This document shows positions 44,150-61,373 of a stretch of DNA of 64,000 nt, piece by piece. The position numbers were made by a program, and so were the translations under genes. Origin of the DNA: Blastocatellia bacterium (lineage in GTDB: Bacteria > Acidobacteriota > Blastocatellia > UBA7656 > JADIYM01). The notes under the pieces were generated by a model. It did not search any database. It saw only the letters and a list, made by a program, of their open reading frames with translations, and was not told the DNA's origin. Position 1 is the stretch's first letter. Each line of letters starts with the position of its first letter. Where the stretch lies: contig JBGAKX010000005.1 of the NCBI GenBank assembly GCA_044224215.1, forward strand, positions 7,350 to 71,349. The letters run 5' to 3'.

Positions 44150-46018
44150 ATGAACACCAGTCGTCTTCGTGTTCGCGTCGGCACGATGTCCGGACGCGTC
44201 GCGCTTGCCGCAATCGCGGTTTCCCTGCTCACCTTCAATTTTGTGCCTGCCAGCGCGCAAGGCGGGGGCTCGCGGCCCGTCGCGCACGATCGCAGCGCCC
44301 GCATCATCGAGGGGAAGGAACGCTCGATAAAGCTCAAGGGCAAGGCGTCCGAGGGCGGCAACAAGGCGCTCGTGTACACGATCTCGTCGTTCCCGCAGCA
44401 CGGAACGCTCACCGAGATGGATACGCAGAAGGGCAAGGTCACCTACACGCCCGACAGCGGCTTTTCGGGTGAGGACGCGTTTGCGTTCACCGTGAACGAC
44501 GGAACGGCCGAAAGCGATCCAGGCAATGTCCGCCTGATGGTCTACAAGCGTGGCGAAGCGCCGACCGGTCCGTCGCTGACGGCCGACGAGGTCCGAACGA
44601 TCGTGCAGGTCGCGGCGACTTCGATCAACGATTCGACAGCGGTCGTCGCCGTCATCGACCGCGCGGGACGCGTGCTTGCTGTCTACAAGCGCTCGGGCGC
44701 CAACAAGAACGACGTCGAGCGCGCGCTTGCGCTCGCACGGACGGGAGCGTTCTTCAGTAACAACGCGGCGCCGCTGTCGTCGCGTACAGTCCGCACGCTT
44801 GGCGGTGTTCACTTCCCGCCGGGCATTCGCGATGCCGGGCCGTCGGATCTTTATTCCATCGAGACGACGAACCGCGGATGTCCGTTCAACGTAACCTACA
44901 ACCCTGGCAAGGACTATCCTGTCTACACAAACCTTGATGGCACGGGTCCCGGCCTTGGTATCGGGACTGGAAAGCCGGACTTCTATGATGACGCCGGCAA
45001 GGTCGTCGATCCTGGCGGTTTCCCCATCTACAAGAACAATCAGGTTGCGGGCGGCATCGGTGTGACCGTTGCGTTTCCGTATAACCTCGGCACGCAGGGT
45101 GTCACGCAGGCGACGACGGCGGCCGAGTACGCTTCGTTCCAGGCGTCTCTCGCGCTCGGCGGGCCCGCTCTTCCACTACCTCCCCCGAACCGCGTCTACC
45201 TTGGCGGCATCGAGCTTCCGTTCTCACCGTTCCTGGACCAGATCGATCGCGGAATCCCAACACCTACTCCAACGGGTGCTGGTCCTGGCGTTGGATCGTT
45301 CGACCCGAACCGGTTCATCTTTGGCCCCGTTGCGGGCGGATTCGCACCCGACGGCTGGCTTGTAGGCCCGCTCTCGGGACGCCGGTTGACAGCTGCACAG
45401 GTCAACAACATCGTGATGAACTGCTTCAACGAGGCAAAGATCACTCGCGCAGCGATTCGTCTTCCGCTTGGTTCACCAGCGTCGATGGTTTTCGCCGTCG
45501 GAGATATTGACGGAACGCTTCTTGGTGTGTTCCGGATGCCTGATTCGACGATCTTCTCCATTGATGTTGCCATTGCAAAATCTCGAAACGTCGTCTGGTT
45601 CAGCACAGACGGGTACGTTGACCTACCTGGCATCCCTCCGGGAACTGCGGTGACAAACAACACGCTCTATGCCGGCGGTCAGCCGTTCTTCCCGATCGGC
45701 ATCAACAACAGCCAGCCAGGGCCGTTCTTTGACACGTTCCTGCGTGATGCTGCGAACCCTTGTACTCAGGGCTCTCAGCGCCGCAATCCCAACCAGAGTG
45801 GCATCGTGTGGTTCCCCGGTTCGGCGCCGCTGTTTTCTGGAAACACGATCGTCGGCGGACTGGGCGTGTCTGGTGACGGCGTCACGCAGGACGACGTGGT
45901 CACGTCCGCAGGTACGACAGGGTACGAAGCGCCTCTCGCGATTCGGGCGGACCAGGTGATCATCCGCGGCGTCCGGATGCCGTACATGAAGTTTAACCGG
46001 AATCCCCACGTTCCGTAG
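44150..46018 (+). CDS. Secreted protein: signal peptide, bacterial Ig/cadherin-like domain, two GlcG/HbpS-like (DUF336, heme-binding/degrading family) domains with large insertions
   Basis: Signal peptide (RVALAAIAVSLLTFNFVPASAQG). Ig-like segment (VYTISSFPQHGTLTEMD...YTPDSGFSGEDAFAFTVNDG). DUF336 hallmarks: TADEVRTIVQVAAT...AVVAVIDRAGRVLAVY, the GGFPI/GGQPFFPI motif, and the terminal GGLGVSGDGVTQDDVV signature. Confidence 0.6.
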   Translation: MNTSRLRVRVGTMSGRVALAAIAVSLLTFNFVPASAQGGGSRPVAHDRSARIIEGKERSIKLKGKASEGGNKALVYTISSFPQHGTLTEMDTQKGKVTYTPDSGFSGEDAFAFTVNDGTAESDPGNVRLMVYKRGEAPTGPSLTADEVRTIVQVAATSINDSTAVVAVIDRAGRVLAVYKRSGANKNDVERALALARTGAFFSNNAAPLSSRTVRTLGGVHFPPGIRDAGPSDLYSIETTNRGCPFNVTYNPGKDYPVYTNLDGTGPGLGIGTGKPDFYDDAGKVVDPGGFPIYKNNQVAGGIGVTVAFPYNLGTQGVTQATTAAEYASFQASLALGGPALPLPPPNRVYLGGIELPFSPFLDQIDRGIPTPTPTGAGPGVGSFDPNRFIFGPVAGGFAPDGWLVGPLSGRRLTAAQVNNIVMNCFNEAKITRAAIRLPLGSPASMVFAVGDIDGTLLGVFRMPDSTIFSIDVAIAKSRNVVWFSTDGYVDLPGIPPGTAVTNNTLYAGGQPFFPIGINNSQPGPFFDTFLRDAANPCTQGSQRRNPNQSGIVWFPGSAPLFSGNTIVGGLGVSGDGVTQDDVVTSAGTTGYEAPLAIRADQVIIRGVRMPYMKFNRNPHVP

Positions 46019-46028
46019 GCCAACTGCC

Positions 46029-48503
46029 ATGCGCCACGCTCATTCGCGGCCAGTTCTCAGCACCCGCCTGCTCGTCGTCATAGGATTGGTGCTCGTTGGC
46101 GGTGGATTCGCGGTCGTCGGTCTCTCCCAGGGCCGAGGTCCCGCAGCCGCTGCGACCGGGCCGCAGAAGGGCCCCGGCACCGGGTTCCTTCACAAAGATC
46201 ATTCGGGAATGGTGGCAATTCCGGGCCAGGCGGGGAAGACCCGCGAGCTGAAATGCGAGACGTGCCACGCGGTCTCCGTGGAGGCTCCGGATACAAACCG
46301 CTTCCCGGGTCCGGATCTCGAGAAGTACCCCGAGACGGCGAAGCTGGCCGCCACCGGCACCAAGCTGAACGGTCTTGGATTTCCCAAGTCGCACTCTGCG
46401 TGCGTCGAGTGTCACAAGGAGATCGCTCCCGGTCCTGGCGGCAAGTACTGCGGCCTTTGTCATGACACGCTGCAGAAGCTGCGCGTATTCCCGAAGGCGA
46501 ACGTCCAGCTGTCGCAGTTCGCCGACCGCTACTCGCACAAGGCCCACAAGGACTACTACGACAACAATCCCGACACCTTCAAGACCGCCGCGGTTTCAAG
46601 GCCCGCTGCGTCGCACGGCATTTTCGGGTCCGCGACCACGTTCGGTACGGCGGACATCCTGCGTGTCTCGTACGTCGCGCCGCCGGCTGAAAAGGGGCTT
46701 CGGTGCTCGACGTGCCACATCCCGGCGACGGGCGGCGTGAAGATGCAGCTGCCGCTGCATGCGAACTGCTTTGAATGCCACGCGAACGAAAAGATTGTCT
46801 CCAAGAAGGCCGACACCTATGCGATGAACTGCGTCGGCTGCCACGCCAACATGGCCTTGAACGATCCGACGGTCGACGAGAAGCTCAAGCCGGTCAAGGA
46901 CGCACTGAACGCGATCGCTCCGGTCATCGATCCGTTCCGTGTCGTCATCACGCCGTCCGGCGCGGGACACGCGCAGTTCAACCACGTCGGCGGCGCCGCG
47001 AAGTACCACGAGGTCCTCAAACCGGATGCCGGCAAGAGCGCCGGGAAGACCATCGAAGGCAAGATGGCCTGCCTGTTCTGCCACACATCGGTGGAGAAGG
47101 CCGCAACGCGCGCCCAGGTCATGGCGTTCGCGGTCAAGAAGACCGATCCTCAGCTCGTCCAGCCGCCGGCGTCCGCATGCGTGGTGTGCCACGTCCACGC
47201 GGTGCAGATGGTCGTTCCCGACAAGCCGTCCAAGACGGGCCGCGCGGGATGCACGGTCTGTCATACGGCGGCCGATGCCGCCAAGCCGGCTCCCGCAACA
47301 CACAGTCTGGGCGAGGCAGCTCCTGCGGCGACGCCGGCAAAGCCCGAGGCGACGCCTCCCGCGGCAAAGCCCGAACCGGCCAAGCCCACAACCGCGCCGG
47401 CGGCGAAACCCGAGCCTGCAAAGCCGGCGGCTCCGAAGCCCGAGCCGACAAAACCTGCGACCGCGCCGGCCGCGAAGCCCGTGGAAACCCCGAAGGTTGA
47501 GACGCCCAAACCGGCCGCGACGCCTGCGCCGGCAAAGCCCGAGACGCCAAAGGTCGAGCCACCCAAGCCCGCACCGACAGAAGCTCCCAAGACGGCCCCG
47601 GCGCCCGAACCCAAGCCTGCAGAACCCGCGGCGCCCAAGCCTCAGGCTGCACCTGCAAGCGGCGGCACGGTCGACTACTCAAAGGGCTACCCGCCCACAG
47701 CGCCCGGCTCGTCGCACCTGAGCCTACCGAACCCGATGCTGCTTGGGGATCCCAAGACCAGCGACCAGTGGGGTCTTGACGGAACGTGGGGGATTTCGAA
47801 GCTCACACACCAGGATCACTCCGAGAAGTACAAGGTTTCGTGCGCCACGTGCCATCACACGAACGGTGCAGGTAACGCGGCGATCGGCGAGCAGGTGCAG
47901 CGTTGCGTGAGCTGCCACAAGGCCGAGGGCGACGAGAAGAACCCGTCCAGCAAGGACGGCGACGAACTCTGGGTGAAGAACGCATTCCACCTGGGTGAAA
48001 CCGGTTGCATCGAGTGTCACAAGCGCGAGTCGGCCAAGAACCCGAATTCGAAGGCTGCGACGACGTGCGCAGGATGCCACCAGCCGAAAGGCAGCGCTGA
48101 CGCGGACCGCGTGCTGAAGGGCCTGTTCCGCGACGCTACGACGGCCGTCGCGTTCAAGGTTCCCGGCTTTGCAGACACGTGGCCTCGCTGGCAGACGCGG
48201 CCTGCCGGATTCGGACTGCTCGGTGGCCAAAGCCTCGCAGGGTCGTTCGGCGGCGCGTCTGTTCGGGCGCTCGTTTGCGACGTTCCGGCGCGACTCTGGT
48301 ATGCACAGTTCGCCGGGTCCGGGTCGCATCGCTCGGCGCGTGTCGTTTCGCACGCGCGGTGGCAACGGCATGAACCCTCGCATGCCGCGCGTTCTCGATC
48401 GCCGCAGGTTCAACTCGCGCCCTCGTGGCGTGGCGAACTGCCCAGACTCGCACTGGCGATCGCGCTCGTGGACCGGAACGCCGGGCACGGCTACAGGATC
48501 TGA
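46029..48503 (+). CDS. Multiheme cytochrome c, 13 CxxCH motifs, with an internal Pro/Ala/Lys-rich linker and a C-terminal tetraheme module
   Basis: Signal peptide/TM helix (LLVVIGLVLVGGGFAVVGL). Thirteen CxxCH motifs were counted (CETCH, CVECH, CGLCH, CSTCH, CFECH, CVGCH, CLFCH, CVVCH, CTVCH, CATCH, CVSCH, CIECH, CAGCH). The start lies 11 nt after the upstream gene stop. The last ~135 codons are Arg-rich and atypical (see findings). Confidence 0.8.
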   Translation: MRHAHSRPVLSTRLLVVIGLVLVGGGFAVVGLSQGRGPAAAATGPQKGPGTGFLHKDHSGMVAIPGQAGKTRELKCETCHAVSVEAPDTNRFPGPDLEKYPETAKLAATGTKLNGLGFPKSHSACVECHKEIAPGPGGKYCGLCHDTLQKLRVFPKANVQLSQFADRYSHKAHKDYYDNNPDTFKTAAVSRPAASHGIFGSATTFGTADILRVSYVAPPAEKGLRCSTCHIPATGGVKMQLPLHANCFECHANEKIVSKKADTYAMNCVGCHANMALNDPTVDEKLKPVKDALNAIAPVIDPFRVVITPSGAGHAQFNHVGGAAKYHEVLKPDAGKSAGKTIEGKMACLFCHTSVEKAATRAQVMAFAVKKTDPQLVQPPASACVVCHVHAVQMVVPDKPSKTGRAGCTVCHTAADAAKPAPATHSLGEAAPAATPAKPEATPPAAKPEPAKPTTAPAAKPEPAKPAAPKPEPTKPATAPAAKPVETPKVETPKPAATPAPAKPETPKVEPPKPAPTEAPKTAPAPEPKPAEPAAPKPQAAPASGGTVDYSKGYPPTAPGSSHLSLPNPMLLGDPKTSDQWGLDGTWGISKLTHQDHSEKYKVSCATCHHTNGAGNAAIGEQVQRCVSCHKAEGDEKNPSSKDGDELWVKNAFHLGETGCIECHKRESAKNPNSKAATTCAGCHQPKGSADADRVLKGLFRDATTAVAFKVPGFADTWPRWQTRPAGFGLLGGQSLAGSFGGASVRALVCDVPARLWYAQFAGSGSHRSARVVSHARWQRHEPSHAARSRSPQVQLAPSWRGELPRLALAIALVDRNAGHGYRI
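47272..47660 (+). repeat. Low-complexity tandem AKPEP/TPKVE-type repeats (Pro/Ala/Lys/Glu-rich linker) inside the 13-heme cytochrome gene
   Basis: Visible degenerate nucleotide repeats (aagcccgagcc..., gcgccggc...) encoding AAKPEPAKPTTAPAAKPEPAKPAAPKPEPTKP... Confidence 0.6.
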
Positions 48504-48662: not shown

Positions 48663-49523
48663 ATGAAAAGAACGATCCCTCTTCTTGCCCTCGTCGCGGC
48701 ACTCTCGGTCACCGCGTGGCTTTCCGACCGGACGAGCGCCCAGGATACGGCGTACAACTATGGGTCGTTCGATCACAAGGAGCACGACGCCGCACTCGAC
48801 AAATCCGCGCAGGAGCGCATCGCGTGCGACGTCTGCCATCGGCGCGACGACGCGAGCTCGCAGCTCTACTTTCCGGGCCACAATGCGTGCATTCAGTGTC
48901 ACGCGACGCAGTTCACGTCCCAGTCGCTCCAGATCTGCGCCGTCTGCCACAAGGACGTCGCGACGCAGGGGCGCGCGCTGAAGGACTTTCCCGCGCAGCG
49001 CAAGGACTACGGCGTCAGGTTCGACGGCGCGGGCAACAAGAGCCAGCACGTCGTCCACATGAAGGAAGCGCTCCCGGACGGCACCAAGATGTCGTGCTCC
49101 TTCTGCCATGCGGCGCAGGGCTCGAATATGGCATTCCCCTCGCACCCCGAGTGCTACGCGTGCCACACGCCAGGTGCGAATTCGAAGGCGGCGTCGCAGG
49201 AATTGAGCACGTGCTCGGTCTGCCACCCCGGCGCTACCGAGCCCAACTCCGAGATGCGACGTCTTGTCAGCACCCGACGCAATGACGCGCTGCCCTACCG
49301 GTTCCGGCATCTCGACCATAACCGGTCCGGCCGGATCGGCAACGATTGCGCCAAGTGCCACAACGACGCGGCCGGAATTCACGTGGCGTCCACCGCAACG
49401 CGCGAGCATCGGGTCAAACCGGGGTTCAACTGCTACGAGTGCCACCGAGGCGGGGGTCTGTCGCGGATCACTGAGACATCGTGCGGAAGCTGTCACGGCG
49501 TCGTCGTGTTCCCGCCGCTGTAG
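48663..49523 (+). CDS. Multiheme cytochrome c, 9 CxxCH motifs, periplasmic
   Basis: Signal peptide MKRTIPLLALVAALSVTAWLS. Nine CxxCH motifs (CDVCH, CIQCH, CAVCH, CSFCH, CYACH, CSVCH, CAKCH, CYECH, CGSCH). Confidence 0.8.
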   Translation: MKRTIPLLALVAALSVTAWLSDRTSAQDTAYNYGSFDHKEHDAALDKSAQERIACDVCHRRDDASSQLYFPGHNACIQCHATQFTSQSLQICAVCHKDVATQGRALKDFPAQRKDYGVRFDGAGNKSQHVVHMKEALPDGTKMSCSFCHAAQGSNMAFPSHPECYACHTPGANSKAASQELSTCSVCHPGATEPNSEMRRLVSTRRNDALPYRFRHLDHNRSGRIGNDCAKCHNDAAGIHVASTATREHRVKPGFNCYECHRGGGLSRITETSCGSCHGVVVFPPL

Positions 49524-49754: not shown

Positions 49755-50291
49755 ATGAGATATGCCAAGGCCGTTCTCTGCATCTGCGCGCTGGCAGTAT
49801 TTGGCGCGCTGTCATTCCACGTTGCGACCTCGTCCGCTGCCTCCGTTGATCCGACCCAGGCTGCGGTTGACTACTCGAAGGGCTACCCTGTGGAAGCTCC
49901 GGGTGCGTCGCACATGAGCCTTCCGAACCCCATGCTGCTCGGCGACCCCAAGACGAGCGACCAGTGGGGCCTCGATGACACGTGGGGAATCGCGAAATTC
50001 ACGCACCAGGACCACACCGAGAAATACAAGGTGTCGTGCCATACGTGCCACCATACAAACGGCAAGGACAATGCCGCCCTGACCGAGAACGTCGACCGTT
50101 GCGTGAAGTGCCACATGGCCGAGGGCAACGAGAAGAACCCGACGAACGCGGCCGGCGACGAACTCGACATCAAGAACGCATTTCACATCGGTGAGACGGG
50201 CTGTATCGAGTGCCACAAGCGCGAATCAGAGAAGAATCCGAACTCGAAGGCCGCCGCGACATGCGCCGGCTGCCACGAGAAGAAGGGCTAA
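49755..50291 (+). CDS. Tetraheme cytochrome c (cytochrome c3/c7-like), paralogous to the C-terminal module of the 13-heme protein
   Basis: Start ATG at 49755 (MRYAKAVLCICALAVFGALSFHVATSSAAS signal peptide). Four CxxCH motifs. About 80 % identical over ~140 aa to residues encoded at 47671-48097. Confidence 0.8.
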   Translation: MRYAKAVLCICALAVFGALSFHVATSSAASVDPTQAAVDYSKGYPVEAPGASHMSLPNPMLLGDPKTSDQWGLDDTWGIAKFTHQDHTEKYKVSCHTCHHTNGKDNAALTENVDRCVKCHMAEGNEKNPTNAAGDELDIKNAFHIGETGCIECHKRESEKNPNSKAAATCAGCHEKKG

Positions 50292-50373: not shown

Positions 50374-51927
50374 ATGTCGACACCACAGAATCCGGAAGTC
50401 GGACTCCCAGCCGATAGCCTACCCACCCAGGCGAAACAGACCTCAGGCACAAACTTCCTCGATCGCGTGCTCAAGCAGCTCAGCTCGGTTCGGTTTGGCG
50501 TATCGCTGCTGATCCTGATGATCATCCTCAGTATGACCGGGATGCTGATCATGCAGATCAACGTCGAGGGATTTGACAAGTACTACGCGACGCTCACCCC
50601 GTCGCAGCAATGGCTCTACACGGATCCGATTCTGCGAGCGATCCGCAACGTGACCGGATGGCGGCTCCAGGGATGGAACATCCTGTCGCTCGTCGACATC
50701 TACAAGTCGTACGTATTCATCACGCTGCTCGCCATTCTGACGCTGAACGTCATCCTCGCGTCGATAGACCACTTTCCAGGTGCGTGGCGTTACATCACCC
50801 GAAAGAAGCTCACGGCCTCGAAGCCGTATGTGCTTCACCAGACCTACAACGCGACGGTCGAGAGCGACGGAAGCGACGCCGAGGCGGCGCAGATTGCCGC
50901 CCTCTGTCGTCACCTTGGCTACACGCCGACGATCACGCGCGAGGCGTCGCGCACGACGGTCTTTGCAGAGCGCGGAGCGTGGAACCGGCTCGGTGCGTAC
51001 TTTGTCCACGTCGGCCTTCTCGTCATCTTCACTGCGGGATTTCTGACGTGGCGGTCGTCGCACACCGGCAGCATGACGCTCACGCCCGGCGCCGAGGCGA
51101 CGACGATTCAGGGCTTGCTGTACGACCTGGACCGCGTTCAGGTCGGCGAGTTCGCGCTTCCCTTCACCGTCGAATGCACCGACATCCAGCAGACGCTGAT
51201 CCGTCCGGACGGGTCGCTGGACGCGAGCAACACGGTCGACTGGTTCACGCGCATACGCATCGCGGACCCCGCAACGGGCAAGAACCTCGATGCCGACGTG
51301 CACATGAACAAGCCCGTCGACTATCGCGGCTACCGTTTCTTCCAGTCCAGTTATCAGAACGTTGCAAAGGCCCGGACGGTGACGCTGCAGATCGACCGGC
51401 CGAACGCGCAGCCTGAACTGGTCGAGTTGCGGGTGAACCAGCCGACGACGCTGTCCGACGGCCGTACGATCGTCTTTGCCAACTTCACCGGCAACGAGAC
51501 CGACGCAAACAACGCGACCGACTATGACAAGCCCGCCGCCGCGCTGCAGGTCGTCGGCGGAGCCGGGGGGCCGCCGCAGTCGTTCGTCGTTCGCGCGGCC
51601 GGAGCGCCTGTTGATTCGACGGGCGTCACTGCGCTCGGCGGTGCGACGGCCACGCTTGTGAGCTTTGAAAAGGTCGGAGCGAGCCACACGCTCTCGGTTC
51701 AGTACGACCCTGGTGCATGGGTTTTTTACATCGGCTCCGTTATTCTTGTGGCCGCATTGATGTCCGTGTTCTTCGCCTCGCACCGTCGAATCTGGTTTGT
51801 GCTTGAGAAGGACAAGGACGGAGCGCACAAGATCTATGTCGGCGGGCATGCCAACCGAAACCGCCCGGCGTTTGAGCGGCAGTTCAAGGACTTGGTAGCG
51901 GCGCTCGCGCCTACCGCGCCAGCGTGA
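50374..51927 (+). CDS. Cytochrome c biogenesis protein ResB/Ccs1 (system II, CcsB)
   Basis: N-terminal TM helix, large periplasmic domain, and C-terminal TM helices with the conserved His. ResB-like collinearity. Start ATG at 50374. The ORF-track start at 50191 overlaps the terminator. Confidence 0.75.
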   Translation: MSTPQNPEVGLPADSLPTQAKQTSGTNFLDRVLKQLSSVRFGVSLLILMIILSMTGMLIMQINVEGFDKYYATLTPSQQWLYTDPILRAIRNVTGWRLQGWNILSLVDIYKSYVFITLLAILTLNVILASIDHFPGAWRYITRKKLTASKPYVLHQTYNATVESDGSDAEAAQIAALCRHLGYTPTITREASRTTVFAERGAWNRLGAYFVHVGLLVIFTAGFLTWRSSHTGSMTLTPGAEATTIQGLLYDLDRVQVGEFALPFTVECTDIQQTLIRPDGSLDASNTVDWFTRIRIADPATGKNLDADVHMNKPVDYRGYRFFQSSYQNVAKARTVTLQIDRPNAQPELVELRVNQPTTLSDGRTIVFANFTGNETDANNATDYDKPAAALQVVGGAGGPPQSFVVRAAGAPVDSTGVTALGGATATLVSFEKVGASHTLSVQYDPGAWVFYIGSVILVAALMSVFFASHRRIWFVLEKDKDGAHKIYVGGHANRNRPAFERQFKDLVAALAPTAPA

Positions 51928-54708: not shown

Positions 54709-57174
54709 ATGCCACAAGAGATCCAGAAGCGTCGGGATGTGCTCGCGGCCATCAAGAGTGTGGCCGCCATTGCAGACATCACCGCTGAGCATGCCGGGCA
54801 TTTCGAGCACGAGATCGACCTCGAAGTCATCGTCTACGGCCGCAACTACAACGGCAAGAAGGTCGGTCCGTACGTGCGCCTCCTCGTCTACCAGAACGGC
54901 GAGGACGTCATGCGCGAGGGCGAGTGGGGCGGGAACACGTTCTACGTCGTGGTCGAGGGCAAGGCCGACGTGCTGATCGACAGCGCGAACGGCATCGTCA
55001 AGGTCGCCGAGATATCGCAGGGCGACATCCTCGGCGAGATGTCGATCCTTGCGGGTGTGCCGCGATCCGCGACCGTTCGTGCACCGCAGGGCGGCGCCGT
55101 GAAGGTGCTCGAGGTTCAGCGTCCGGCGCTCCGGTTGCTGCGCAAGCTGCCGCATTTTGGTGAGTCGCTCGACCGGTCGTATCGCCATCACGGCAGAAAC
55201 CAGATTCTCCAGGTACTCGGGTCCGTGGAGCACCTGTCGACGGACGCGATCAAGGCGCTTGAGGGCATCTCGCAGTTCCGCGTGTACGGCAAGGGGCACG
55301 TCCTGTTCCGTGCGGGCGAGCAGATTCGTCGTGTCTACCTTCTCAAGACCGGCTGGCTGCGAATGTCGCAACAGGCTAAGACCTCGCTGCTCGCGGCGGT
55401 GCCCGGGTATGGCAACGTGAAATCGCTGTCGTGGGACACCCCGTCGCCGGACAGCTACTTTGGTCCGTCACACGCGTTCGGCCTGGAGGGCGTCCAGCAG
55501 GATGCAACGTGGCGCCACTCGGGCGTGCTGCTCGGACGCACCGAGATGCTCGAGGTGTCGGTGTCGGAGCTCCGAAAGAACCCGCAGCTCGTTGCGCTCC
55601 TTGGGCACGCGCTGCAGACCCTCGAGATCAAGGACGCGCAGGCCGACAAGGGTCCGCCGGCCCCGGTCGCCGAGGCGCAACGCGAACTGATCGCGAACGG
55701 GCTCGTCGACGGGACGAACCTGTTGCTGATGGACATGGAGCTGTGCGTCCGGTGCGGCAACTGCTCGCTTGCCTGCAATCACCAGCACGGCAACTCGAGA
55801 CTGCTGCGACGGGGCATTTCGATCACGCGCCCCGAGACGCTCAAGAAGAACTCGCATACGCAGCACCTCATGAATCCGTCGGTCTGCATGCACTGCATGG
55901 ACCCCGAGTGCATGACGGGCTGTCCGACGGGAGCGATCGGTCGCTTCCCCGGCGGCTATGTCGACATCGATCCGAAGACGTGCATCGGGTGCGGCGACTG
56001 CGCGACGCAGTGCCCGTACGACGCCATCTCGCTGATCGCGCGACGGCCAAAGCCTGGTGAGAAATCGAATGCGCTTGTCGAGATGTTCAGCCTGGCGCCT
56101 GCGCCGATACCCGAGTCGGTCGAAACGACCGAGGACCTCGTTGCGGTCAAGTGCAACCTTTGCAGCAATACGCCGCTGAACCCGCCGGGCGCGAAGTCGC
56201 GCAAGTACAGCTGCGAAGAGAACTGTCCAACTGGTGCGCTTCTGCGTGTGAGCCCGCGTGTCTACTTTGACGAGATCGCCAACATCGAGGGCGTCATCTT
56301 CAAGGACGATACGCACATCGTTTCCAAACACACGTCGCACCGCGATCCCAAGAAGCGACTCATTCACCTGCTCGGCATCGTGCTCACGCTGGCGCTTGCC
56401 GCGGTGAGCGTGGCGGCGCTTTACAGAATCGGCCGCGACAATCCGCTCCTTGGATCGTGGTTCAACTTCTACTGGTTCACCGGGATTGTTGGTCTTCTCG
56501 CGATCACGTGGGTGATGTTGTACCCGATCCGCCGACAGATCTTCCGCAAACGCGTCATTCCGTTGCGCTACTGGATGCTGTCGCATGCCTACATGGGCGT
56601 GATCGCGGGCGTGCTCCTTCTCATGCACGCCGGGACGCGCGGTGGCGGCCTGCTGACCACGTCGCTGATGATCACGTTCGACCTGGTCATCCTGACGGGG
56701 TTGTGGGGCATCGCCACGTACTACGTCGTGCCGAGAGTGCTCACAAAGATCGAGGAGCAACCGCTCCTCGTCGACGACCTCATCCTCAGACGGCAGGAAC
56801 TGACTGAGGAGATCGCGGACACGGTCGCCCGCGCGTCGCAGCCGACGCGTGATGCGATCGAGAAGGGCGTCATTCCGCACTTCCTGACGTTTGGCTATCT
56901 GCTGGGACAGTATTTCTCGGCAAAGCCGCTCGCGGTGAATACTGCAGAAGCCCGCAAGCATTTTGAGCAGACGGCGATGACGCTTCCTCCCAACGAGCGC
57001 GATTCGTTCTTTGGCGCTGTCGAGCGCGCGGCGACGCTGCGTCGGGTCGACGCGCTCATCCTGCTGCACCGGTCGCTCAAGGCGTGGCTCGCACCGCACG
57101 TCCTGACGACGTCGCTCATGCTCGCCCTGATGATCGTGCACATCATTCAGGTCATCTATTTCGCCGTGAAATGA
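54709..57174 (+). CDS. Cyclic-nucleotide-binding (2x cNMP) domain protein fused to a four-cluster [4Fe-4S] ferredoxin module and a C-terminal His-containing polytopic membrane domain
   Basis: cNMP-binding signature GEMSIL...RSATVRA and a second degenerate CAP-like domain. Cysteine motifs: CVRCGNCSLAC, CMHCMDPECMTGCP, CIGCGDCATQCP, and CNLCSN...C-x3-CP (the NrfC/PsrB-like tetra-cluster pattern). At least 5 C-terminal TM helices. Confidence 0.7.
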   Translation: MPQEIQKRRDVLAAIKSVAAIADITAEHAGHFEHEIDLEVIVYGRNYNGKKVGPYVRLLVYQNGEDVMREGEWGGNTFYVVVEGKADVLIDSANGIVKVAEISQGDILGEMSILAGVPRSATVRAPQGGAVKVLEVQRPALRLLRKLPHFGESLDRSYRHHGRNQILQVLGSVEHLSTDAIKALEGISQFRVYGKGHVLFRAGEQIRRVYLLKTGWLRMSQQAKTSLLAAVPGYGNVKSLSWDTPSPDSYFGPSHAFGLEGVQQDATWRHSGVLLGRTEMLEVSVSELRKNPQLVALLGHALQTLEIKDAQADKGPPAPVAEAQRELIANGLVDGTNLLLMDMELCVRCGNCSLACNHQHGNSRLLRRGISITRPETLKKNSHTQHLMNPSVCMHCMDPECMTGCPTGAIGRFPGGYVDIDPKTCIGCGDCATQCPYDAISLIARRPKPGEKSNALVEMFSLAPAPIPESVETTEDLVAVKCNLCSNTPLNPPGAKSRKYSCEENCPTGALLRVSPRVYFDEIANIEGVIFKDDTHIVSKHTSHRDPKKRLIHLLGIVLTLALAAVSVAALYRIGRDNPLLGSWFNFYWFTGIVGLLAITWVMLYPIRRQIFRKRVIPLRYWMLSHAYMGVIAGVLLLMHAGTRGGGLLTTSLMITFDLVILTGLWGIATYYVVPRVLTKIEEQPLLVDDLILRRQELTEEIADTVARASQPTRDAIEKGVIPHFLTFGYLLGQYFSAKPLAVNTAEARKHFEQTAMTLPPNERDSFFGAVERAATLRRVDALILLHRSLKAWLAPHVLTTSLMLALMIVHIIQVIYFAVK

Positions 57175-57231: not shown

Positions 57232-58701
57232 ATGGCAACGAGCAAATTCACTATCATTCGCAAGGACCTCCAGACGGACCCGTCTGTTGTCGACAGTGAC
57301 GGCCTCACGATCGGGCGCCTTGTCAGCAACGACCTGCCGCTCAACCACCCCGAGGTTTCGCGCACGCACGCGGGTATCAAGGAGGTCGGTGGCGACTACT
57401 GGATATTCAACCTCTCGAATGCCAACGGGACCATCCTCAACGGTGCGCCGGTAGACAGCGCACCGCTGGCGGCTGGCGACGTCATTCAGCTCGGGCCATT
57501 CACGTTGCTTGTTTCGTTCACCGATCGCGTGCTGACGCTCACGGTCGAGGTGAGCGTCAACCCGATGCGCGTCGAGAATGCCGGCGCAGCGGGTGCGACG
57601 GTCGATCAGGCCGGCAAGACGATGATGCTCAACCCGGCCATGTTGGCTGCCCAGCAGCAGAAGGCAGCGCCGGGCGGCACTCAGCGACTGGCAATGACAG
57701 GCAAGCTCACCGGCATGCTCGCCAAGCCGGAAGAGCTCGCGCTGAAGGTCTTCTGGGAGAAGCGCCAGCGCGACGAAGGCAAGATGGCCGAGCGCACGGA
57801 CCTGAAGCCGAACCTTCAAAAGGGCCGTGTCGGCAAGATCCGCTTCAACTGGAGATCGTCGTCCGACCTGCGCAGGCCGTGGCCCGTCGGGCTGTTTCTG
57901 TGGGGTACGATCCTTGTCGCGGTGGGCGCGATCGCAGCGACGTTTCTCTACAAGCAGGCGTACACGAAGGGGCCGCTCGCCGACGTGCATACGCGCACCG
58001 CGCTCGCTCAGGCAGAGCCGGCTCTCGCGATCGCAAAGACCGCAAACGCCAACTCGTGCACGACGTGCCACTCGCTCACAAAGTCGATGGCCGGCCAGTG
58101 TGCCGAGTGCCACACGACGCCCGGGTTCAAGTCTACCGTTTCGCACGAACACGAGATGGCCGGCGTCACGTGCTCCGAGTGCCATGGACAGGACCATCGC
58201 GGCAACGCATTCAGGCTCGCGGCGGCCGAGACGTCTTGCGACACGTGTCACAGGCAGGGCTACGTCTTCAAGAGCGTTGCCCAGGGGAAGGACATCGTCC
58301 TGCAGACGCCGCACGGCGGCGCGAACATCGGCTACCCCGTGACCAACGGCCAGTGGACGTGGGCCGGCTGGCCTGAAGAGAAATGGAAGAAGCGCGGATT
58401 GCCGAAGACCGCGGCGGCCTTTGACATCAAGGGCCAGTTCCACGTCATCCACGTCGACAACGGAAAGCCGCTGGAGCAGGTTCAGTGCTCGGACTGCCAC
58501 ACCAAGGGCTTCGAGCCTGCAAACATCACGAAGGGCGTCCGCGAGTCGTGCGCGTCGTGCCACGGCGACACTGTGGCCCAGGCGGGCGCGTCGCCGTCGA
58601 GGGGCGCGCAGTGCACGTCCTGCCACCAGCAGCATACCGAGGGCAAGGACCCGTACGCGCTTGTGCGCGCGCGCGAGGTCAACGCGGCTCGAACAAAATG
58701 A
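57232..58701 (+). CDS. FHA-domain protein fused via one TM helix to a periplasmic heptaheme cytochrome c
   Basis: N-terminal FHA fold (TIGRLVSNDLPLNHPEVSRTHAGI...GDYWIFNLSNANGTILNG, i.e. the GR...S.H...N.NGT pattern). TM helix PVGLFLWGTILVAVGAIAATFLY. Seven CxxCH motifs (CTTCH, CAECH, CSECH, CDTCH, CSDCH, CASCH, CTSCH). Confidence 0.75.
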   Translation: MATSKFTIIRKDLQTDPSVVDSDGLTIGRLVSNDLPLNHPEVSRTHAGIKEVGGDYWIFNLSNANGTILNGAPVDSAPLAAGDVIQLGPFTLLVSFTDRVLTLTVEVSVNPMRVENAGAAGATVDQAGKTMMLNPAMLAAQQQKAAPGGTQRLAMTGKLTGMLAKPEELALKVFWEKRQRDEGKMAERTDLKPNLQKGRVGKIRFNWRSSSDLRRPWPVGLFLWGTILVAVGAIAATFLYKQAYTKGPLADVHTRTALAQAEPALAIAKTANANSCTTCHSLTKSMAGQCAECHTTPGFKSTVSHEHEMAGVTCSECHGQDHRGNAFRLAAAETSCDTCHRQGYVFKSVAQGKDIVLQTPHGGANIGYPVTNGQWTWAGWPEEKWKKRGLPKTAAAFDIKGQFHVIHVDNGKPLEQVQCSDCHTKGFEPANITKGVRESCASCHGDTVAQAGASPSRGAQCTSCHQQHTEGKDPYALVRAREVNAARTK

Positions 58702-58758
58702 TCGGCGCTCATGGACTCCCCGTCCGGCGCAATGTGATGGACCGGTGAAACGTACATC

Positions 58759-60435
58759 ATGAAGAAGTCGCAACTCATCATTACCATCCTGATGCTCGTC
58801 ATTCTGGTCGCGGCTGCATTTGGCACGCGTTACCTGAATGTGAATCTCGGCGCCGTGCCCTGGTACGGCTGGACGGCACTCGCGATCGTGCTGATCGTCA
58901 TCGGAGTGATCGGCCTGATACTCGAGACGTCACGCGACCGGCGGGACCTGAAGGCTGCCACGATCGAGGCGGAACGCGAAGCCGCCGAACGGCTCGAGGC
59001 ATCCAAGCACCCTGACCTTGCGGTAAACGTCGCCGCATTGGACCCCGGTGGACCCGCGTATCCGCACCCTGTCATCAACTCGGCCACGTGCATCGGCTGT
59101 CATGCGTGCGTGGACGCTTGCCCGCATGACGTGCTCGCAATCGTGAACGGCATCTCCACTCCGATCGCGCTCGATCAGTGCATGGAGGACACCGGGTGCC
59201 AGGTTGAATGCCCGACCAGCCCCAAGTCCTGCATCGTGGTCAACACAAAGAAGAAGATTCCGGAGCGGAAGGTTCCAAAGCGCGACAACCGATTCATGAC
59301 CAATGTTCCCGGCATCTACCTGATCGGCGACGTATCGGGAGTTCCACTCATCAAGAACGCGATCAACGAGGGCGGCGCGGTCATCGAGCACATCGCCGAG
59401 GACCTTCAGAAGAAGGGCGGCAACGGCCAGGCGGAATACGATGTCGCGATCGTCGGCGTCGGACCCGGCGGTCTTTCGGCCGCGGCGCTCGCAAAGCAGA
59501 AGGGTCTGCGCTACGTAGCGCTCGAACAGGACAAGGTCGTCGCCACGATTCAGGCCTACCCGGCCGGCAAGTACGTGTTCTTCAAGCCCGACACGGTCGA
59601 GACGGACGGCGGCATCGAGCTACCCGGCGCCGGTCTTCCAAAGGAGCAGATGATCGGCTCGTGGCTTGACACGATCAAGAACAACTCGCTCAAGATCAAC
59701 GAGTACGAGACGTGCAAGAGCGTCAAGAACGAGAACGGCCTCTTCGTGGTCCGCACCGATTCGGAGAAGACCAAGCAGAGCGCCGAGTACAGGTCACAGA
59801 CGGTCATCATCGCCGTGGGTGGCCGCGGCACGCCGATGCGCCTCAAGGTGCCAGGCGAAGAGATCAAGCTGCAGGTGACGCCGAGCGCTCCGGTTATGTC
59901 GTCCTTCTGCGTCAAGTGCGGCCAGCCGCGCGAGGGCGCGGCGACCGTCTGTCCGAAGTGCAACGCTGCGTATCCGTCTCGCATTCCGCCGCCGTTCGAG
60001 GACGAGAAGGTGAAGTATCGCCTCAGCGATCCGAATCTTTTCTCGGGCAAGCACTGCATCGTCGTTGGCGCCGGCAACTCGGCGATCGAGTGCGCGGTGG
60101 ATCTCGCGTCGTATCGCTCGGAAGACGGCACGCAGATCATCGGATGGCGCGACAACGTCGTCACGCTCGTCATCCGGAGCGACTTCAAGGGCGACCTGAA
60201 GCTCGGCAACAAGATGCTGTGCTATGAGTGCATGGACGAGGGGAAGATCACGACCCACTTCCGAAAGGCATTCAAGGAGATCACGCCGACCGAGGTCGTG
60301 CTCATGAGCGCGCGCGAGCGCGACCCGGCCACGGCAAAGGAGACCGACCGAATCCGCAACGACTACATCTTTGCGCTGATCGGCGGCGACAAGCCGACCA
60401 AGTTCCTCGAGAGCATGGGAATCCAGATCGGCTAG
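58759..60435 (+). CDS. Membrane-anchored 2x[4Fe-4S] ferredoxin domain fused to an FAD/NAD(P)-binding (thioredoxin-reductase-like) oxidoreductase with an inserted zinc ribbon
   Basis: Two N-terminal TM helices. Ferredoxin motifs [12 protein letters not shown] and C-x5-C-x3-CP. Two Rossmann GxGxxG motifs ([25 protein letters not shown]). Zinc ribbon CVKCG...CPKCN. Confidence 0.7.
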
Positions 60436-60506
60436 CCAACGACGGACCGACCCGTGACGAGGCGCCATCGTGCGCCTCGTCGTCTTTCCGATGGTTTGGG
60501 GGGAGC

Positions 60507-61373
60507 ATGAACGAAGATCTGCTGAGCTTGATGCCAACAACCGAGATGACGCGACGGCGCTTTGTCGTCACGTCGCTTGCGGCCGGATTTGCGCTTGCGG
60601 TGCAGCCCGTATCCGCGCAGACCGTGATCACGACCGATTCACAAGGTCTCGAGGCCGGCGAAGTCCAGATCCCGGTTTCAGACGGGAAGATGCCTGCCTA
60701 CCGCGCGATGCCGCTCAAGGGAAAGAATTTCCCGGTGGTGCTCGTCGTTCAGGAGATCTTCGGCGTCCACGAGCACATTCGGGACGTGTGCCGGCGTTTC
60801 GCAAAGCTTGGACACATGGCGATCGCGCCGGAGCTTTACGCGCGACAGGGCGATGTATCAAAGATGACCGACATCCAGGAGATCATCACAAACGTCGTCT
60901 CAAAGGTGCCGGATTCGCAGGTGATGTCCGATCTCGACGCCACCGCGGCATGGGCCGGCGCATCCGGCAAGGCCGACGTGAAGAAGCTCGGCATCACCGG
61001 CTTCTGCTGGGGGGGCCGCATCGTGTGGCTCTATGCTGCCCACAACCCCAAGCTCAAGGCCGGAGTCGCCTGGTACGGCCGTCTCGTCGGTCAGCCATCG
61101 GAACTCCAGCCAAAGTATCCGATCGATCTCGTCAAGGAACTGAAGGCACCCGTGCTTGGCCTCTACGGCGCAAGCGACCAGGGAATCCCCGTCGATACGG
61201 TCGAGAAGATGCAGGCGGCCTTGAAGTCGGCCGGCAGCAAGTCCGAGATCGTGCTCTACCCCGACACGCCTCACGGTTTCAACGCCGACTACCGCCCGTC
61301 ATACCGCAAGGAACAGGCGCAGGACGGTTGGAAACGGCTGAACGCCTGGTTCGCCAGGTACGGCGCGGCGTAG
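60507..61373 (+). CDS. Dienelactone hydrolase family protein with twin-arginine (Tat) signal peptide
   Basis: Tat motif [28 protein letters not shown] nucleophile motif GFCWGG. Conserved D and H (YPDTPHGF). Confidence 0.8.

What the first reader, a model, noticed from the sequence alone, without database searches (positions are those of the whole stretch)
44150..61373. About 17-kb co-oriented electron-transfer supercluster with multiheme cytochromes, dedicated maturation genes and signal-gated membrane redox proteins
All eleven genes are on the plus strand, tightly spaced, and bounded by rnpB/SCP2 on one side and a perfect bidirectional terminator on the other. The set contains a secreted GlcG/HbpS-like protein, 13-, 9- and 4-heme cytochromes and the system II maturation genes ResB/CcsA, then a TPR protein. 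Following these are a cNMP-binding tetra-FeS membrane protein, an FHA-anchored heptaheme cytochrome, and a membrane ferredoxin-FAD oxidoreductase. The cluster ends with a Tat-exported hydrolase. The composition suggests a complete path from cytoplasmic NAD(P)H to a 33-heme periplasmic or extracellular chain. The path would run FAD/Fd reductase, then membrane FeS protein, then periplasmic hemes. Two sensory inputs (cyclic nucleotide, phospho-threonine/FHA) are built into the redox proteins themselves. I do not recognise this combination as a described respiratory or extracellular-electron-transfer module.
Basis: partly seen in the sequence, partly recalled or inferred. Interest (0 to 1): 0.85.

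Follow-up and report, generated by a model that had tools for sequence, protein, structure and literature searches.

The report
Sensor-fused transmembrane electron conduit cluster
An uncultured soil and sludge acidobacterium carries a widely conserved but unstudied three-protein set that looks built to pass electrons across the cell membrane from a flavoenzyme through iron-sulfur clusters and hemes; two signalling domains are fused into it, and the neighbouring cytochrome and heme-attachment genes are variable accessories.

Summary
There are eleven plus-strand genes at 44150-61373, with 33 CXXCH motifs (13+9+4+7), ResB/CcsB, a cNMP-binding four-cluster FeS membrane protein, an FHA-heptaheme cytochrome, a membrane Fd-FAD oxidoreductase and a Tat-signal DLH hydrolase. 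The 17-kb block is not a conserved unit.

The conserved core is the trio g8-g9-g10 (54709-60435). In related Blastocatellia genomes g9 follows g8 in 69/69 loci and g10 follows g9 in 48/49. g9 and g10 are fused into one ORF in 18/58 loci, with a topology-consistent loss of one helix. g8 is split in Vicinamibacteria. Myxococcota-type loci (one family member is source-labelled Myxococcales) add Ser/Thr kinases or PP2C.

New here: the g8 C-terminal membrane domain has two invariant H-x13-H pairs, so it probably binds two b hemes. It matches no Pfam family and no solved structure.

The cytochrome cassette (g2-g4) recurs near the trio in 20/33 loci but at shuffled positions. The ccs genes and the CcmI-like TPR gene co-locate only in some lineages, g1 only sporadically, and DLH never.

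The only precedent found is the uncharacterised "ptd" operon of a 2023 preprint. Direction of flow, acceptor and signals are unknown.

The parts
54709..57174 (+). g8 (821 aa), core component 1. It has tandem cyclic-nucleotide-binding domains; the first has an intact G-E...R-[ST]-A phosphate-binding cassette. Next comes a four-[4Fe-4S] ferredoxin domain (Cys 346/349/352/356, 393/396/401/405, 425/428/431/435, 482/485/502/506). Then follows a 5-helix membrane domain (helices about 547-574, 587-609, 619-641, 648-681, 794-820) with His pairs H626/H640 and H797/H811, predicted to bind two b hemes.
57232..58701 (+). g9 (489 aa), core component 2. It has a cytoplasmic FHA domain (GR...SRTH...NG), one transmembrane helix and a periplasmic heptaheme c domain.
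   Evidence: Pfam FHA 53.4 bits and Cytochrom_c3_2/C7. Seven CXXCH motifs, kept in 73/74 homologues, with conserved FHA residues. It lies directly downstream of g8 in 69/69 loci.
58759..60435 (+). g10 (558 aa), core component 3. It has two N-terminal transmembrane helices and a 2-cluster-type ferredoxin domain. It also has a TrxR/YpdA-like two-Rossmann flavoprotein domain (GxGxxG FAD motif and [12 protein letters not shown](P)H motif) with a Cys4 zinc-ribbon-like insert.
   Evidence: Pfam Pyr_redox_3 104 bits, Pyr_redox_2 87.5 bits and Fer4. YpdA model 127.6 bits, below the cutoff of 339.9. Closest solved structures are Bdr/YpdA 7a7b and 7a76. Conserved motifs are listed. It lies downstream of g9 in 48/49 loci and is fused to g9 in 18/58 loci.
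46029..48503 (+). g2 (824 aa), accessory. It is a membrane-anchored 13-heme cytochrome made of a 9-heme domain (three triheme units), a roughly 130-aa Pro/Ala/Lys-rich linker and a c3 tetraheme domain. A 137-aa Arg-rich tail of doubtful reality follows.
   Evidence: The c3 domain at 47668-48092 is 77% identical in DNA to g4 at 49864-50288. The L012 orthologue is 9-heme only.
48663..49523 (+). g3 (286 aa), accessory. It is a secreted nonaheme cytochrome built of three c7-like triheme units.
   Evidence: g3-like genes are the most frequent neighbours of the trio.
49755..50291 (+). g4 (178 aa), accessory. It is a secreted class III (c3-type) tetraheme cytochrome.
   Evidence: PF02085 47.2 bits. 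Four CXXCH motifs. The gene call matches L001.
44150..46018 (+). g1 (622 aa), accessory of uncertain link. It is a secreted protein with a Big_9/cadherin-like Ig domain and two HbpS-like (GlcG/DUF336) domains.
   Evidence: It is co-located with g2/g3-like genes in L012 and L084. An HbpS-like gene also lies beside the split system in Vicinamibacteria.
50374..51927 (+). g5, ResB (CcsA/Ccs1-type system II cytochrome c synthetase subunit).
   Evidence: PF05140 191.7 bits, full length.
51938..53503 (+). g6, CcsB (heme-handling subunit). It carries the WGRYWGWDSKE tryptophan-rich motif.
   Evidence: TIGR03144 200.8 bits against a cutoff of 187.6. PF01578. The motif was read from the translation.
53585..54475 (+). 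g7. It is a membrane-anchored TPR protein, a CcmI/CycH-like apocytochrome chaperone candidate.
   Evidence: PF23914 TPR_CcmH_CycH 64.5 bits against a cutoff of 42. It sits with CcsB next to cytochrome cassettes in Pyrinomonadaceae loci.
60507..61373 (+). g11, a Tat-signal dienelactone hydrolase. It is a neighbour and not part of the system.
   Evidence: PF01738 202.5 bits. No homologue is co-located in any of the 80 related loci.
61381..61420 (.). Perfect-stem hairpin between the convergent g11 and tricorn protease genes. It marks the downstream boundary.

Best explanation
The window comes from a Blastocatellia (Acidobacteriota) genome. Its functional heart is a three-protein inner-membrane redox complex, g8-g9-g10.

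Inferred path:
1. g10 oxidises NAD(P)H at FAD. It is membrane-tethered and cytoplasmic, with a TrxR/YpdA-like fold.
2. g10 hands electrons to its own ferredoxin domain.
3. They pass along the four [4Fe-4S] clusters of g8 in the cytoplasm.
4. They cross the membrane through two b hemes held by H626/H797 (inner side) and H640/H811 (outer side) of g8.
5. They reach the seven c hemes of g9 in the periplasm.

In this genome further periplasmic carriers are encoded next door: g4 (c3 type), g3 (3 x c7 type) and the anchored 13-heme g2. They sit with the system II maturation genes (ResB, CcsB, CcmI-like TPR) that attach their hemes.

Two cytoplasmic sensor domains are built into the wire. One is a PKA/PKG-like tandem cNMP-binding module on g8. 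The other is a phosphothreonine-binding FHA domain on g9. Flux is therefore probably switched by a cyclic nucleotide and by Ser/Thr phosphorylation.

Shown: domain content, invariant ligands, synteny, fusions and fissions.
Inferred: cofactor occupancy, complex formation, direction of flow (outward), physiological acceptor and the gating.
For: - Synteny: g9 follows g8 in 69/69 loci and g10 follows g9 in 48/49 loci. These loci cover g8 identities of 47-73%.
- Fusion in Blastocatellia: g9 and g10 form one ORF in 18/58 loci. The fusion lacks exactly the first g10 helix, which keeps the Fd-FAD part cytoplasmic.
- Fusion in Myxococcota-type loci: FHA(+cytochrome)+(Fer4)+Pyr_redox fusions lie next to g8 homologues.
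- Other rearrangements: a Pyr_redox+cNMP+Fer4 fusion exists. In Vicinamibacteria g8 is split into a cNMP+FeS protein and a 248-aa membrane protein that keeps both H-x13-H pairs (E = 3e-11).
- Ligands: 16 Cys and 4 His are invariant across 82 sequences down to 25% identity. The G-E...R of the cNMP phosphate-binding cassette is kept in at least 90% of them.
- g9: the seven heme motifs and the FHA pThr-binding residues are conserved.
- Signalling neighbours: Pkinase or PP2C genes are adjacent in three distant loci.
- Cytochrome neighbours: extra multiheme cytochromes lie near the trio in 20/33 loci with wide flanks. Their positions and strands are shuffled. They also occur in distant lineages.
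- Topology: the positive-inside rule, read on the g8 sequence, places both His pairs as one inner and one outer heme site (sequence).
Against: - No experiment exists for any member. Heme b binding is inferred from motifs only, and the model coordinates could not be inspected.
- The membrane domain matches no known cytochrome b family by Pfam or by fold search.
- The direction of flow cannot be read from sequence.
- 13/33 loci with wide flanks carry the trio without extra cytochromes within the flanks held, up to 10 kb on each side. The g2-g4 link is therefore facultative.
- Some distant loci lack an adjacent FAD reductase.
- No outer-membrane component or terminal reductase is present in the window.
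- Known Blastocatellia isolates are aerobes (my own knowledge), so a respiratory metal-reducing role is not obvious.
- Outward electron flow from NAD(P)H would dissipate membrane potential.
Confidence: 0.6

Rival explanations
1. One reading: all eleven genes form one dedicated 17-kb system, a complete NAD(P)H-to-extracellular chain that includes the HbpS-like protein, private maturation genes and the Tat hydrolase.
For: All genes are co-oriented and bounded by rnpB and a strong hairpin. L012 shares g1-g10 in the same order. Independent assemblies of what appears to be the same organism (identical g8 protein) share the same gene order as far as their contigs reach. HbpS-like genes and ccs-TPR genes recur near related cassettes in other lineages.
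Against: Only 1 of 80 related species-level loci keeps the whole set. DLH is never co-located. ccs and TPR are co-located only in L012 and Pyrinomonadaceae. Gaps of 231-233 nt precede g4 and g8, which suggests separate transcription units. No outer-membrane conduit is encoded.
Confidence: 0.12
2. Same complex, opposite direction. Reduced periplasmic cytochromes feed electrons inward through the c hemes, b hemes and FeS clusters to reduce NAD(P)+ or a ferredoxin-like acceptor. Possible sources are hydrogenase or formate dehydrogenase partners of c3-type cytochromes, or Fe(II). This would work like the Hmc/Tmc complexes of sulfate reducers.
For: The best NCBIfam hits for g4 and the g2 C-terminal domain are HmcA and TmcA, which are c3 cytochromes. 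The FeS domain resembles DsrO and HmcB. All cofactors predicted here can in principle carry electrons in either direction (established knowledge of such centres).
Against: Electron import against an inside-negative potential, combined with uphill NAD(P)+ reduction, needs very low-potential donors. No hydrogenase or formate dehydrogenase is encoded nearby. There is no HdrD-like CCG protein.
Confidence: 0.15
3. The membrane di-heme domain of g8 is a quinone-reactive module like NarI, FdnI or the PsrC partners. The complex would then be an NAD(P)H:quinone oxidoreductase, or g9 a CymA/ImcH-like quinol dehydrogenase. It would not be a quinone-independent wire.
For: Four-cluster ferredoxins such as PsrB and FdnH normally dock on quinone-reactive membrane subunits (structural matches). 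g9 has a single N-proximal helix followed by hemes, like NapC/NirT-type proteins (sequence).
Against: Neither g9 nor g8 matches Cytochrom_NNT, NarI, NrfD or Ni_hydr_CYTB. Fold searches found no match to those membrane subunits. The g9-g10 fusion argues for a direct three-way complex.
Confidence: 0.1
4. The trio is mainly a redox sensor or signal transducer, not a bulk electron pathway. It would report periplasmic redox or heme status to cytoplasmic cNMP and Ser/Thr-kinase networks.
For: There are two sensor-type domains. Kinases, PP2C and response regulators neighbour distant homologues. HbpS-like proteins act with a sensor kinase in Streptomyces (family knowledge; Pfam PF03928 hit).
Against: A flavoenzyme, six or so FeS clusters, two b hemes and seven c hemes is heavy machinery for sensing. 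CNB and FHA are receiver or adaptor modules with no output domain in the trio. Abundant partner cytochromes are encoded nearby.
Confidence: 0.08

Closest known systems
ptdABCDEFG putative operon (bioRxiv 10.1101/2023.11.21.568154; marine Alpha- and Gammaproteobacteria, Nitrospirales, Planctomycetes)
   Same: [quoted passage not shown] Its function is stated to be completely unknown.
   Different: In Ptd the FeS protein has two clusters and is separate from the membrane protein. PtdC is described as flavohemoprotein-like, not TrxR/YpdA-like. Ptd has a porin and a pentaheme NrfA-like protein, and no FHA domain is mentioned. Here the cNMP, 4 x FeS and membrane domains are one protein, an FHA-heptaheme protein is obligatory, and no porin is present. 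Sequence homology could not be tested because no Ptd sequences are held.
Hmc/Tmc/DsrMKJOP transmembrane redox complexes of sulfate reducers
   Same: They use cytoplasmic FeS, a membrane cytochrome b and periplasmic multiheme c (c3-type) in one membrane-spanning chain. The g4 and g2 C-terminal domains hit HmcA/TmcA, and the FeS domain hits DsrO/HmcB, below the equivalog cutoffs.
   Different: This system has no HdrD/DsrK-type CCG protein and no NarI- or NrfD-type membrane subunit. Its FeS four-cluster domain is cytoplasmic, not periplasmic. It has a flavoprotein partner and sensor domains, and its host belongs to a class whose isolates are aerobes (my own knowledge).
NADPH oxidase / ferric reductase (NOX/FRE, FRD superfamily; MsrQ)
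   Same: The logic is the same: cytoplasmic NAD(P)H flavoenzyme, then two b hemes stacked across the membrane on two helices with H-x13-H spacing, then an outside acceptor. Eukaryotic NOX5 and DUOX are also regulated by signalling domains (family knowledge).
   Different: There is no significant PF01794 match. This domain has 5 helices, not 6, and no fold match to solved NOX or FRD structures appeared in the lists. The flavoprotein is of another family and is a separate chain. An FeS wire is interposed and c hemes sit downstream.
Four-cluster ferredoxin subunits of the CISM and hydrogenlyase families (PsrB/NrfC, DmsB, FdnH, HycB, ArrB)
   Different: It is fused between cNMP-binding domains and a heme-type membrane domain. 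It has no catalytic molybdo- or tungstopterin partner and no Tat export.
Geobacter inner-membrane and periplasmic cytochromes (ImcH heptaheme; PpcA c7; GSU1996-type poly-c7 cytochromes)
   Same: g9 is a membrane-anchored heptaheme. g3 and the g2 N-terminal domain are built of c7-like triheme units (PF14522; TIGR04257 at 27 bits, below cutoff).
   Different: No family-level match exists. g9 carries a cytoplasmic FHA domain. No OmcS/E/Z-type or porin-cytochrome genes are present.

Membership tests
System II cytochrome c maturation (ResB/CcsB) | ResB-family protein and a CcsB equivalog scoring above the curated cutoffs, with a Trp-rich WWD motif in CcsB | tested here: met
   PF05140 191.7 bits. 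TIGR03144 200.8 bits against 187.6. WGRYWGWDSKE was read in the g6 translation.
CcmI/CycH-like apocytochrome chaperone (TPR) | Match to the CcmH/CycH TPR domain model above cutoff, plus a membrane anchor | tested here: met
   PF23914 64.5 bits against 42. An N-terminal hydrophobic helix was read from the sequence. Generic TPR models score higher, so the function is inferred.
Four-cluster (DmsB/PsrB/HycB-type) ferredoxin | Sixteen conserved Cys in four cluster motifs and the matching fold | tested here: met
Four-cluster (DmsB/PsrB/HycB-type) ferredoxin | Equivalog-level membership of a named subunit (DsrO, DmsB, NrfC, HybA and others) | tested here: not met
   The best hit, DsrO, scores 69.5 bits against a cutoff of 200. 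All others are also below cutoff.
Cyclic-nucleotide-binding domain (PKA-R/PKG/CRP type) | Pfam match above cutoff and an intact phosphate-binding cassette (G-E...R-[ST]-A) | tested here: met
   PF00027 73.7 bits, two stretches. GEMSILAGVPRSAT lies in domain 1. G109 is invariant and E110 and R119 are at least 90% conserved. The profile matches PKA-R/PKG tandem CNB. Domain 2 lacks the cassette (sequence). Ligand identity was not testable.
FHA domain | Pfam match plus the conserved pThr-contacting residues (GR, SxxH, NG) | tested here: met
   PF00498 53.4 bits. GR..., SR.H and N.S..ngT.lNG are conserved in 74 homologues.
Ferric reductase / NOX transmembrane domain (PF01794) | Significant match to PF01794 and a six-helix topology | tested here: not met
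   g8 gave no hit. The split homologue scored E = 1.8. The model has five helices. No NOX, FRD or MsrQ structure appeared in the fold-search lists.
Ferric reductase / NOX transmembrane domain (PF01794) | Two bis-His heme sites from H-x12/13-H pairs on two parallel transmembrane helices | tested here: met
   H626-x13-H640 and H797-x13-H811 are invariant in 82 sequences and in the split form. Heme binding itself is not testable with these tools.
Low-Mr TrxR / YpdA (Bdr) flavoprotein family | FAD and NAD(P)H Rossmann motifs, equivalog score, and (for TrxR) a redox-active CxxC in the NADPH domain | tested here: inconclusive
   Both dinucleotide motifs are present and conserved. The YpdA model scores 127.6 against 339.9 and TrxR scores 64.8 against 343. 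No TrxR-type CxxC is present, only a Cys4 ribbon (sequence). g10 shares the fold family but is not a member of either named enzyme.
NapC/NirT/CymA quinol dehydrogenases | Match to Cytochrom_NNT (PF03264), with four hemes on an N-terminal helix | tested here: not met
   Pfam returned no such hit for g9 at E <= 0.01. g9 has seven hemes.
Porin-cytochrome outer-membrane conduits (MtrCAB/Pcc) | An outer-membrane beta-barrel gene next to deca- or multiheme cytochromes | tested here: not met
   No barrel or porin family was found among g1-g11. MtrC-domain hits in g2 and g3 cover only heme-packing domains, and TIGR03507/03508 score far below cutoff.
Ptd cluster (preprint) | Co-occurrence of a FAD/NAD(P) oxidoreductase, a cNMP-binding FeS protein, a di-heme-type membrane protein and multiheme cytochromes | tested here: met
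   g10, g8 (the two functions fused), g9 and g2-g4, compared with the description.
Ptd cluster (preprint) | Sequence homology to PtdC/E/F, and presence of the porin PtdB and pentaheme PtdA | not testable with these tools
   No Ptd sequences are in the held supplements. No porin or pentaheme gene is in the window.
Hmc/Tmc/Dsr transmembrane complexes | HdrD/DsrK-type CCG-domain protein and a NarI- or NrfD-type membrane subunit | tested here: not met
   No CCG, NarI or NrfD family hit was found in any of the eleven proteins.

The most novel reading that the evidence does not exclude
g8-g9-g10 is a previously unrecognised class of signal-gated, quinone-independent transmembrane electron exporter. 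It would be a prokaryotic counterpart of regulated NADPH oxidases and ferric reductases, built from different parts: a TrxR-like flavoprotein, an FeS wire, a new di-heme membrane fold and an anchored heptaheme. A cyclic nucleotide and Ser/Thr phosphorylation would switch it on or off. It would supply reducing power to periplasmic multiheme networks in soil and sludge Acidobacteriota and Myxococcota, whose cultured representatives are mostly aerobic (my own knowledge).
Probability: 0.35. Interest if true: 0.85.

Novelty: new variant of a known kind. Interest (0 to 1): 0.7.

Why it matters
Acidobacteriota are among the most abundant soil and activated-sludge bacteria. Their many multiheme cytochromes have no assigned function (PMC8100337). 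This analysis isolates a compact, strictly conserved three-gene core that gives those cytochromes an inner-membrane electron entry or exit point.

Relatives of g8 occur in at least 547 stretches of species-representative genomes. A single-protein search of 50%-identity cluster representatives found 191 representatives at E <= 1e-30.

The analysis predicts a new heme-b membrane domain. It also predicts that electron flux is controlled post-translationally by second-messenger and phosphothreonine signals built into the redox proteins themselves.

Direct signal gating of a respiratory-type wire is, to my knowledge, rare in bacteria. It can be tested directly with recombinant proteins. It may also explain the unexplained 'ptd' clusters of marine bacteria.

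Tried and rejected
- Full-length AF2 of g8 with a shallow 15-sequence alignment gave an unusable model (pLDDT 52.8). It was redone on residues 320-821 with 82 diverse sequences.
- Pfam at E <= 10 on the isolated membrane domain gave nothing significant.
- The Ptd preprint supplements hold no sequences, so homology with g8 and g10 could not be tested.
- The third homologue search, with the split form P0367, stayed within Vicinamibacteria-like proteins and did not reach marine taxa.
- The promoter and terminator consensus scan did not exceed shuffles. Alignment of the g7-g8 gap with L012 showed only the ribosome-binding site conserved.
- Literature searches for FHA+heptaheme and for cNMP+FeS+FHA combinations found nothing else.
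- Rejected: NapC/NirT membership of g9, a porin-cytochrome conduit, Hmc/Tmc membership and DLH as a component (see the membership tests).
- The 'SCP2' boundary gene is only a sub-threshold hit.

Full report
**Observation**

The window (about 62% G+C) carries eleven plus-strand ORFs between 44150 and 61373. CXXCH counts are 13, 9, 4 and 7, giving 33.

Pfam and NCBIfam confirm the domain calls:
- g1: a secreted Big_9 plus 2 x HbpS-like protein.
- g2-g4: c3/c7/MtrC-domain cytochromes.
- g5: ResB.
- g6: CcsB, above the equivalog cutoff.
- g7: a TPR protein.
- g8: a cNMP-binding Fer4 membrane protein.
- g9: an FHA plus multiheme protein.
- g10: a Fer4 plus Pyr_redox membrane protein.
- g11: a DLH hydrolase with a TRRRFVV Tat-like signal.

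RNase P RNA lies upstream at 43059-43482 on the minus strand. A -35.9 kcal/mol hairpin at 61381-61420 separates g11 from a convergent tricorn protease. The 'SCP2' gene is only a sub-threshold hit.

The exact g8 protein is encoded, with the same neighbours, on contigs from several independent samples. These include Blastocatellia MAGs GCA_964552245.1, GCA_041912095.1 and GCA_035429825.1. The arrangement is therefore real.

**Refinements of the anatomy**

- g2 is composite. It has a 9-heme domain, a roughly 130-aa Pro/Ala/Lys-rich linker and a c3 domain. The DNA of that c3 domain (47668-48092) is a 77%-identical, gap-free copy of g4 (49864-50288) and ends exactly where g4 stops.
- The nearest relative has only the 9-heme form of g2. 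The extra 137-aa Arg-rich tail of g2 is unexplained.
- g7 scores above cutoff on the CcmH/CycH TPR model. g5-g6-g7 therefore read as a system II maturation set with an apocytochrome chaperone.
- g8 has four complete cluster motifs (16 Cys). Its C-terminal membrane domain has no Pfam family. Two helices of that domain each carry H-x13-H: H626/H640 and H797/H811.

**What is conserved**

A scan of 185,579 species-representative genomes with a g8 alignment found at least 547 relatives. The best 80 appear to be Acidobacteriota: most are labelled Blastocatellia, Pyrinomonadaceae or simply Acidobacteriota. About a dozen carry implausible 'Clostridia', 'Heliomicrobium' or 'Heliobacteriaceae' labels.

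tblastn of all eleven proteins against these loci gave the following:
- g9 lies directly downstream of g8 in 69/69 loci.
- g10 lies downstream of g9 in 48/49 loci.
- g1-g7 are co-located as a set only in the closest relative, L012.
- g11 is never co-located.

In 17 of 58 loci an AAA+ ATPase gene, in at least one locus together with a rhomboid gene, is inserted between g9 and g10.

In 18 of 58 loci g9 and g10 form a single ORF. The fusion read in full (L064, 1056 aa) lacks the first g10 helix, and the other 17 g10 matches also start 19-30 residues into g10. The resulting order is FHA, helix, 7 hemes, helix, Fd-FAD. This is topologically consistent only if the FHA and Fd-FAD parts are cytoplasmic and the hemes periplasmic.

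Extra multiheme genes lie near the trio in 20/33 loci with wide flanks. They are typically 9+9(+4) hemes, or a 4-9-4-8-9 series. They sit upstream, downstream or convergent. In Pyrinomonadaceae they sit together with CcsB and the TPR gene. Association that survives shuffling of position is the signature of a functional, facultative partnership.

**Beyond Blastocatellia**

A search of 1.84 billion cluster representatives found 191 at E <= 1e-30. Many are full-length relatives at 28-33% identity. Some are labelled Myxococcales, Kofleriaceae or Deltaproteobacteria. Their contexts repeat the theme with different joins:
- L091: Pkinase, then a g8 homologue, then a 2 x FHA + Pyr_redox fusion.
- L092: a g8 homologue, with a 2 x FHA + cytochrome + Pyr_redox fusion and PP2C on the opposite, convergent strand.
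- L093: two Pkinase genes, then a 1030-aa multiheme protein, then a g8 homologue, then a cytochrome + Fer4 + Pyr_redox fusion.
- L097: three c7-type cytochromes, then a g8 homologue, then an FHA + Fer4 + Pyr_redox fusion, then a c3-type cytochrome.
- L098 and L099: a c7 cytochrome gene transcribed divergently, then a g8 homologue followed by a 2 x FHA (+c7) protein.
- A Pyr_redox + cNMP + Fer4 fusion also exists.

In Vicinamibacteria g8 is split into a 515-aa cNMP+FeS protein and a 248-aa membrane protein that keeps both H-x13-H pairs (BLASTP E = 3e-11). These sit among multiheme genes, a 3 x FHA protein, an HbpS-like protein and an outer-membrane barrel.

**Structure**

With an 82-sequence alignment spanning 25-76% identity, all 16 Cys and the four His are invariant. 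AlphaFold2 gives a confident model of residues 320-821 (pLDDT 88.8, pTM 0.86).

By the positive-inside rule, helices 619-641 and 794-820 both run from inside to outside. H626/H797 would then form an inner heme site and H640/H811 an outer one. This is inference from sequence, because the model coordinates could not be inspected.

The N-terminal region resembles the tandem CNB modules of PKA-R and PKG. Its first domain has an intact phosphate-binding cassette and the second is degenerate. In g9 the seven heme motifs and the FHA pThr-contact residues are conserved. The closest solved relatives of g10 are YpdA/Bdr and TrxR-like flavoproteins. Both of its dinucleotide motifs, its ferredoxin Cys and a Cys4 ribbon are conserved.

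**Mechanism**

Best-supported path: NAD(P)H, then FAD (g10), then the g10 ferredoxin clusters, then four [4Fe-4S] clusters (g8), then two b hemes across the membrane (g8), then seven c hemes (g9), then facultative periplasmic multiheme carriers (here g4, g3 and g2). A cyclic nucleotide acting on g8 and phosphothreonine recognition by g9 would act as switches.

Shown: domains, ligands, synteny, fusions and fissions.
Inferred: cofactor loading, physical complex, outward direction, acceptor and gating.

Rival readings are scored in the rival explanations: inward flow, quinone coupling, a mainly sensory role, and the full 11-gene system.

**Comparison with known systems**

The only description of a similar gene combination found is the 'ptdABCDEFG' cluster of a 2023 preprint. 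[quoted passage not shown] Its function is stated to be 'completely unknown'. The present system shares the logic but differs in several ways:
- its fusion pattern;
- its flavoprotein family;
- its number of FeS clusters;
- the obligatory FHA-heptaheme protein;
- the lack of a porin.

Homology could not be tested.

It works like Hmc/Tmc/Dsr complexes or NOX/FRE enzymes but fails their defining membership features (see the membership tests). A survey of sludge Acidobacteriota noted only that their multiheme cytochromes have unknown substrates (PMC8100337).

**Verdict**

The unit of interest is the g8-g9-g10 trio, not the 17-kb block. It is a new variant of membrane-spanning redox complexes with unusual built-in sensor domains and an unclassified di-heme membrane domain. 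It is widespread and experimentally untouched.

Noticed in passing
window 47668-48503 and 49864-50288: The C-terminal c3 domain of g2 is a 77%-identical gap-free DNA duplicate of g4. Where g4 has its stop codon, g2 reads on for 137 Arg-rich codons of doubtful coding reality. Assemblies that carry the identical g8 protein call an 829-aa product, and the nearest species has only the 9-heme form.
   Followed up: partly
L015 14384-16777; L018 14083-15225 (and 15 other loci): In one Blastocatellia subclade an AAA+ (ClpX/ClpB-like AAA_2) ATPase gene is inserted between the FHA-heptaheme and Fd-FAD genes, sometimes together with a rhomboid protease gene. This might point to assembly or quality control of the complex.
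   Followed up: partly
L023 and L063 (both on contig CAZJQQ010000008.1): One genome carries two paralogous trios about 13 kb apart. The first has separate g9 and g10 genes behind a 9+9-heme pair. The second has a fused g9-g10 behind a 4-9-4-8-9-heme series that includes a roughly 1400-aa 9-heme protein (the homologous L064 protein has LVIVD repeats).
   Followed up: partly
L011, L013, L023, L026, L033, L047, L063, L065, L068, L070, L071: Several 'binchicken' MAG records labelled uncultured Clostridia, Heliomicrobium or Heliobacteriaceae carry loci 52-73% identical to this Blastocatellia g8, with the same synteny. The taxon labels look wrong.
   Followed up: no
L095 4757-8615 and 15781-18972: In Vicinamibacteria the split system is flanked by an HbpS-like protein, a 771-aa protein with a faint alginate-export (beta-barrel) hint, and a CarboxypepD_reg + OMP barrel protein. 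These are candidate outer-membrane partners, and nothing comparable is in this window.
   Followed up: partly
window 22350-24440 (+): A 696-aa protein has two CXXCH motifs and a di-heme cytochrome c peroxidase/MauG domain. It is the only other c-type heme protein candidate in the window.
   Followed up: no
window 30400-35121 (-): Adjacent sucrose synthase and sucrose-phosphate synthase/phosphatase fusion genes are followed by a sugar ABC transporter. This sucrose metabolism cluster is unrelated to the finding.
   Followed up: no
window 58759-60435, residues about 167-218 and 380-405 of g10: The C-terminal-type FAD motif ([10 protein letters not shown]) of pyridine-nucleotide oxidoreductases precedes the N-terminal GxGxxG motif, which suggests a circular permutation. 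A conserved CxxC...CxxC ribbon is inserted in the NAD(P)H domain and could be a zinc site or a rubredoxin-like centre.
   Followed up: no
window 54585-54604 and 49572-49600: A weak terminator-like hairpin lies in the 233-nt gap before g8, and a TTGACA-17-TAGGAT promoter-like site lies before g4. They hint at separate transcription units, but such sites are no more frequent than in shuffled sequence.
   Followed up: partly
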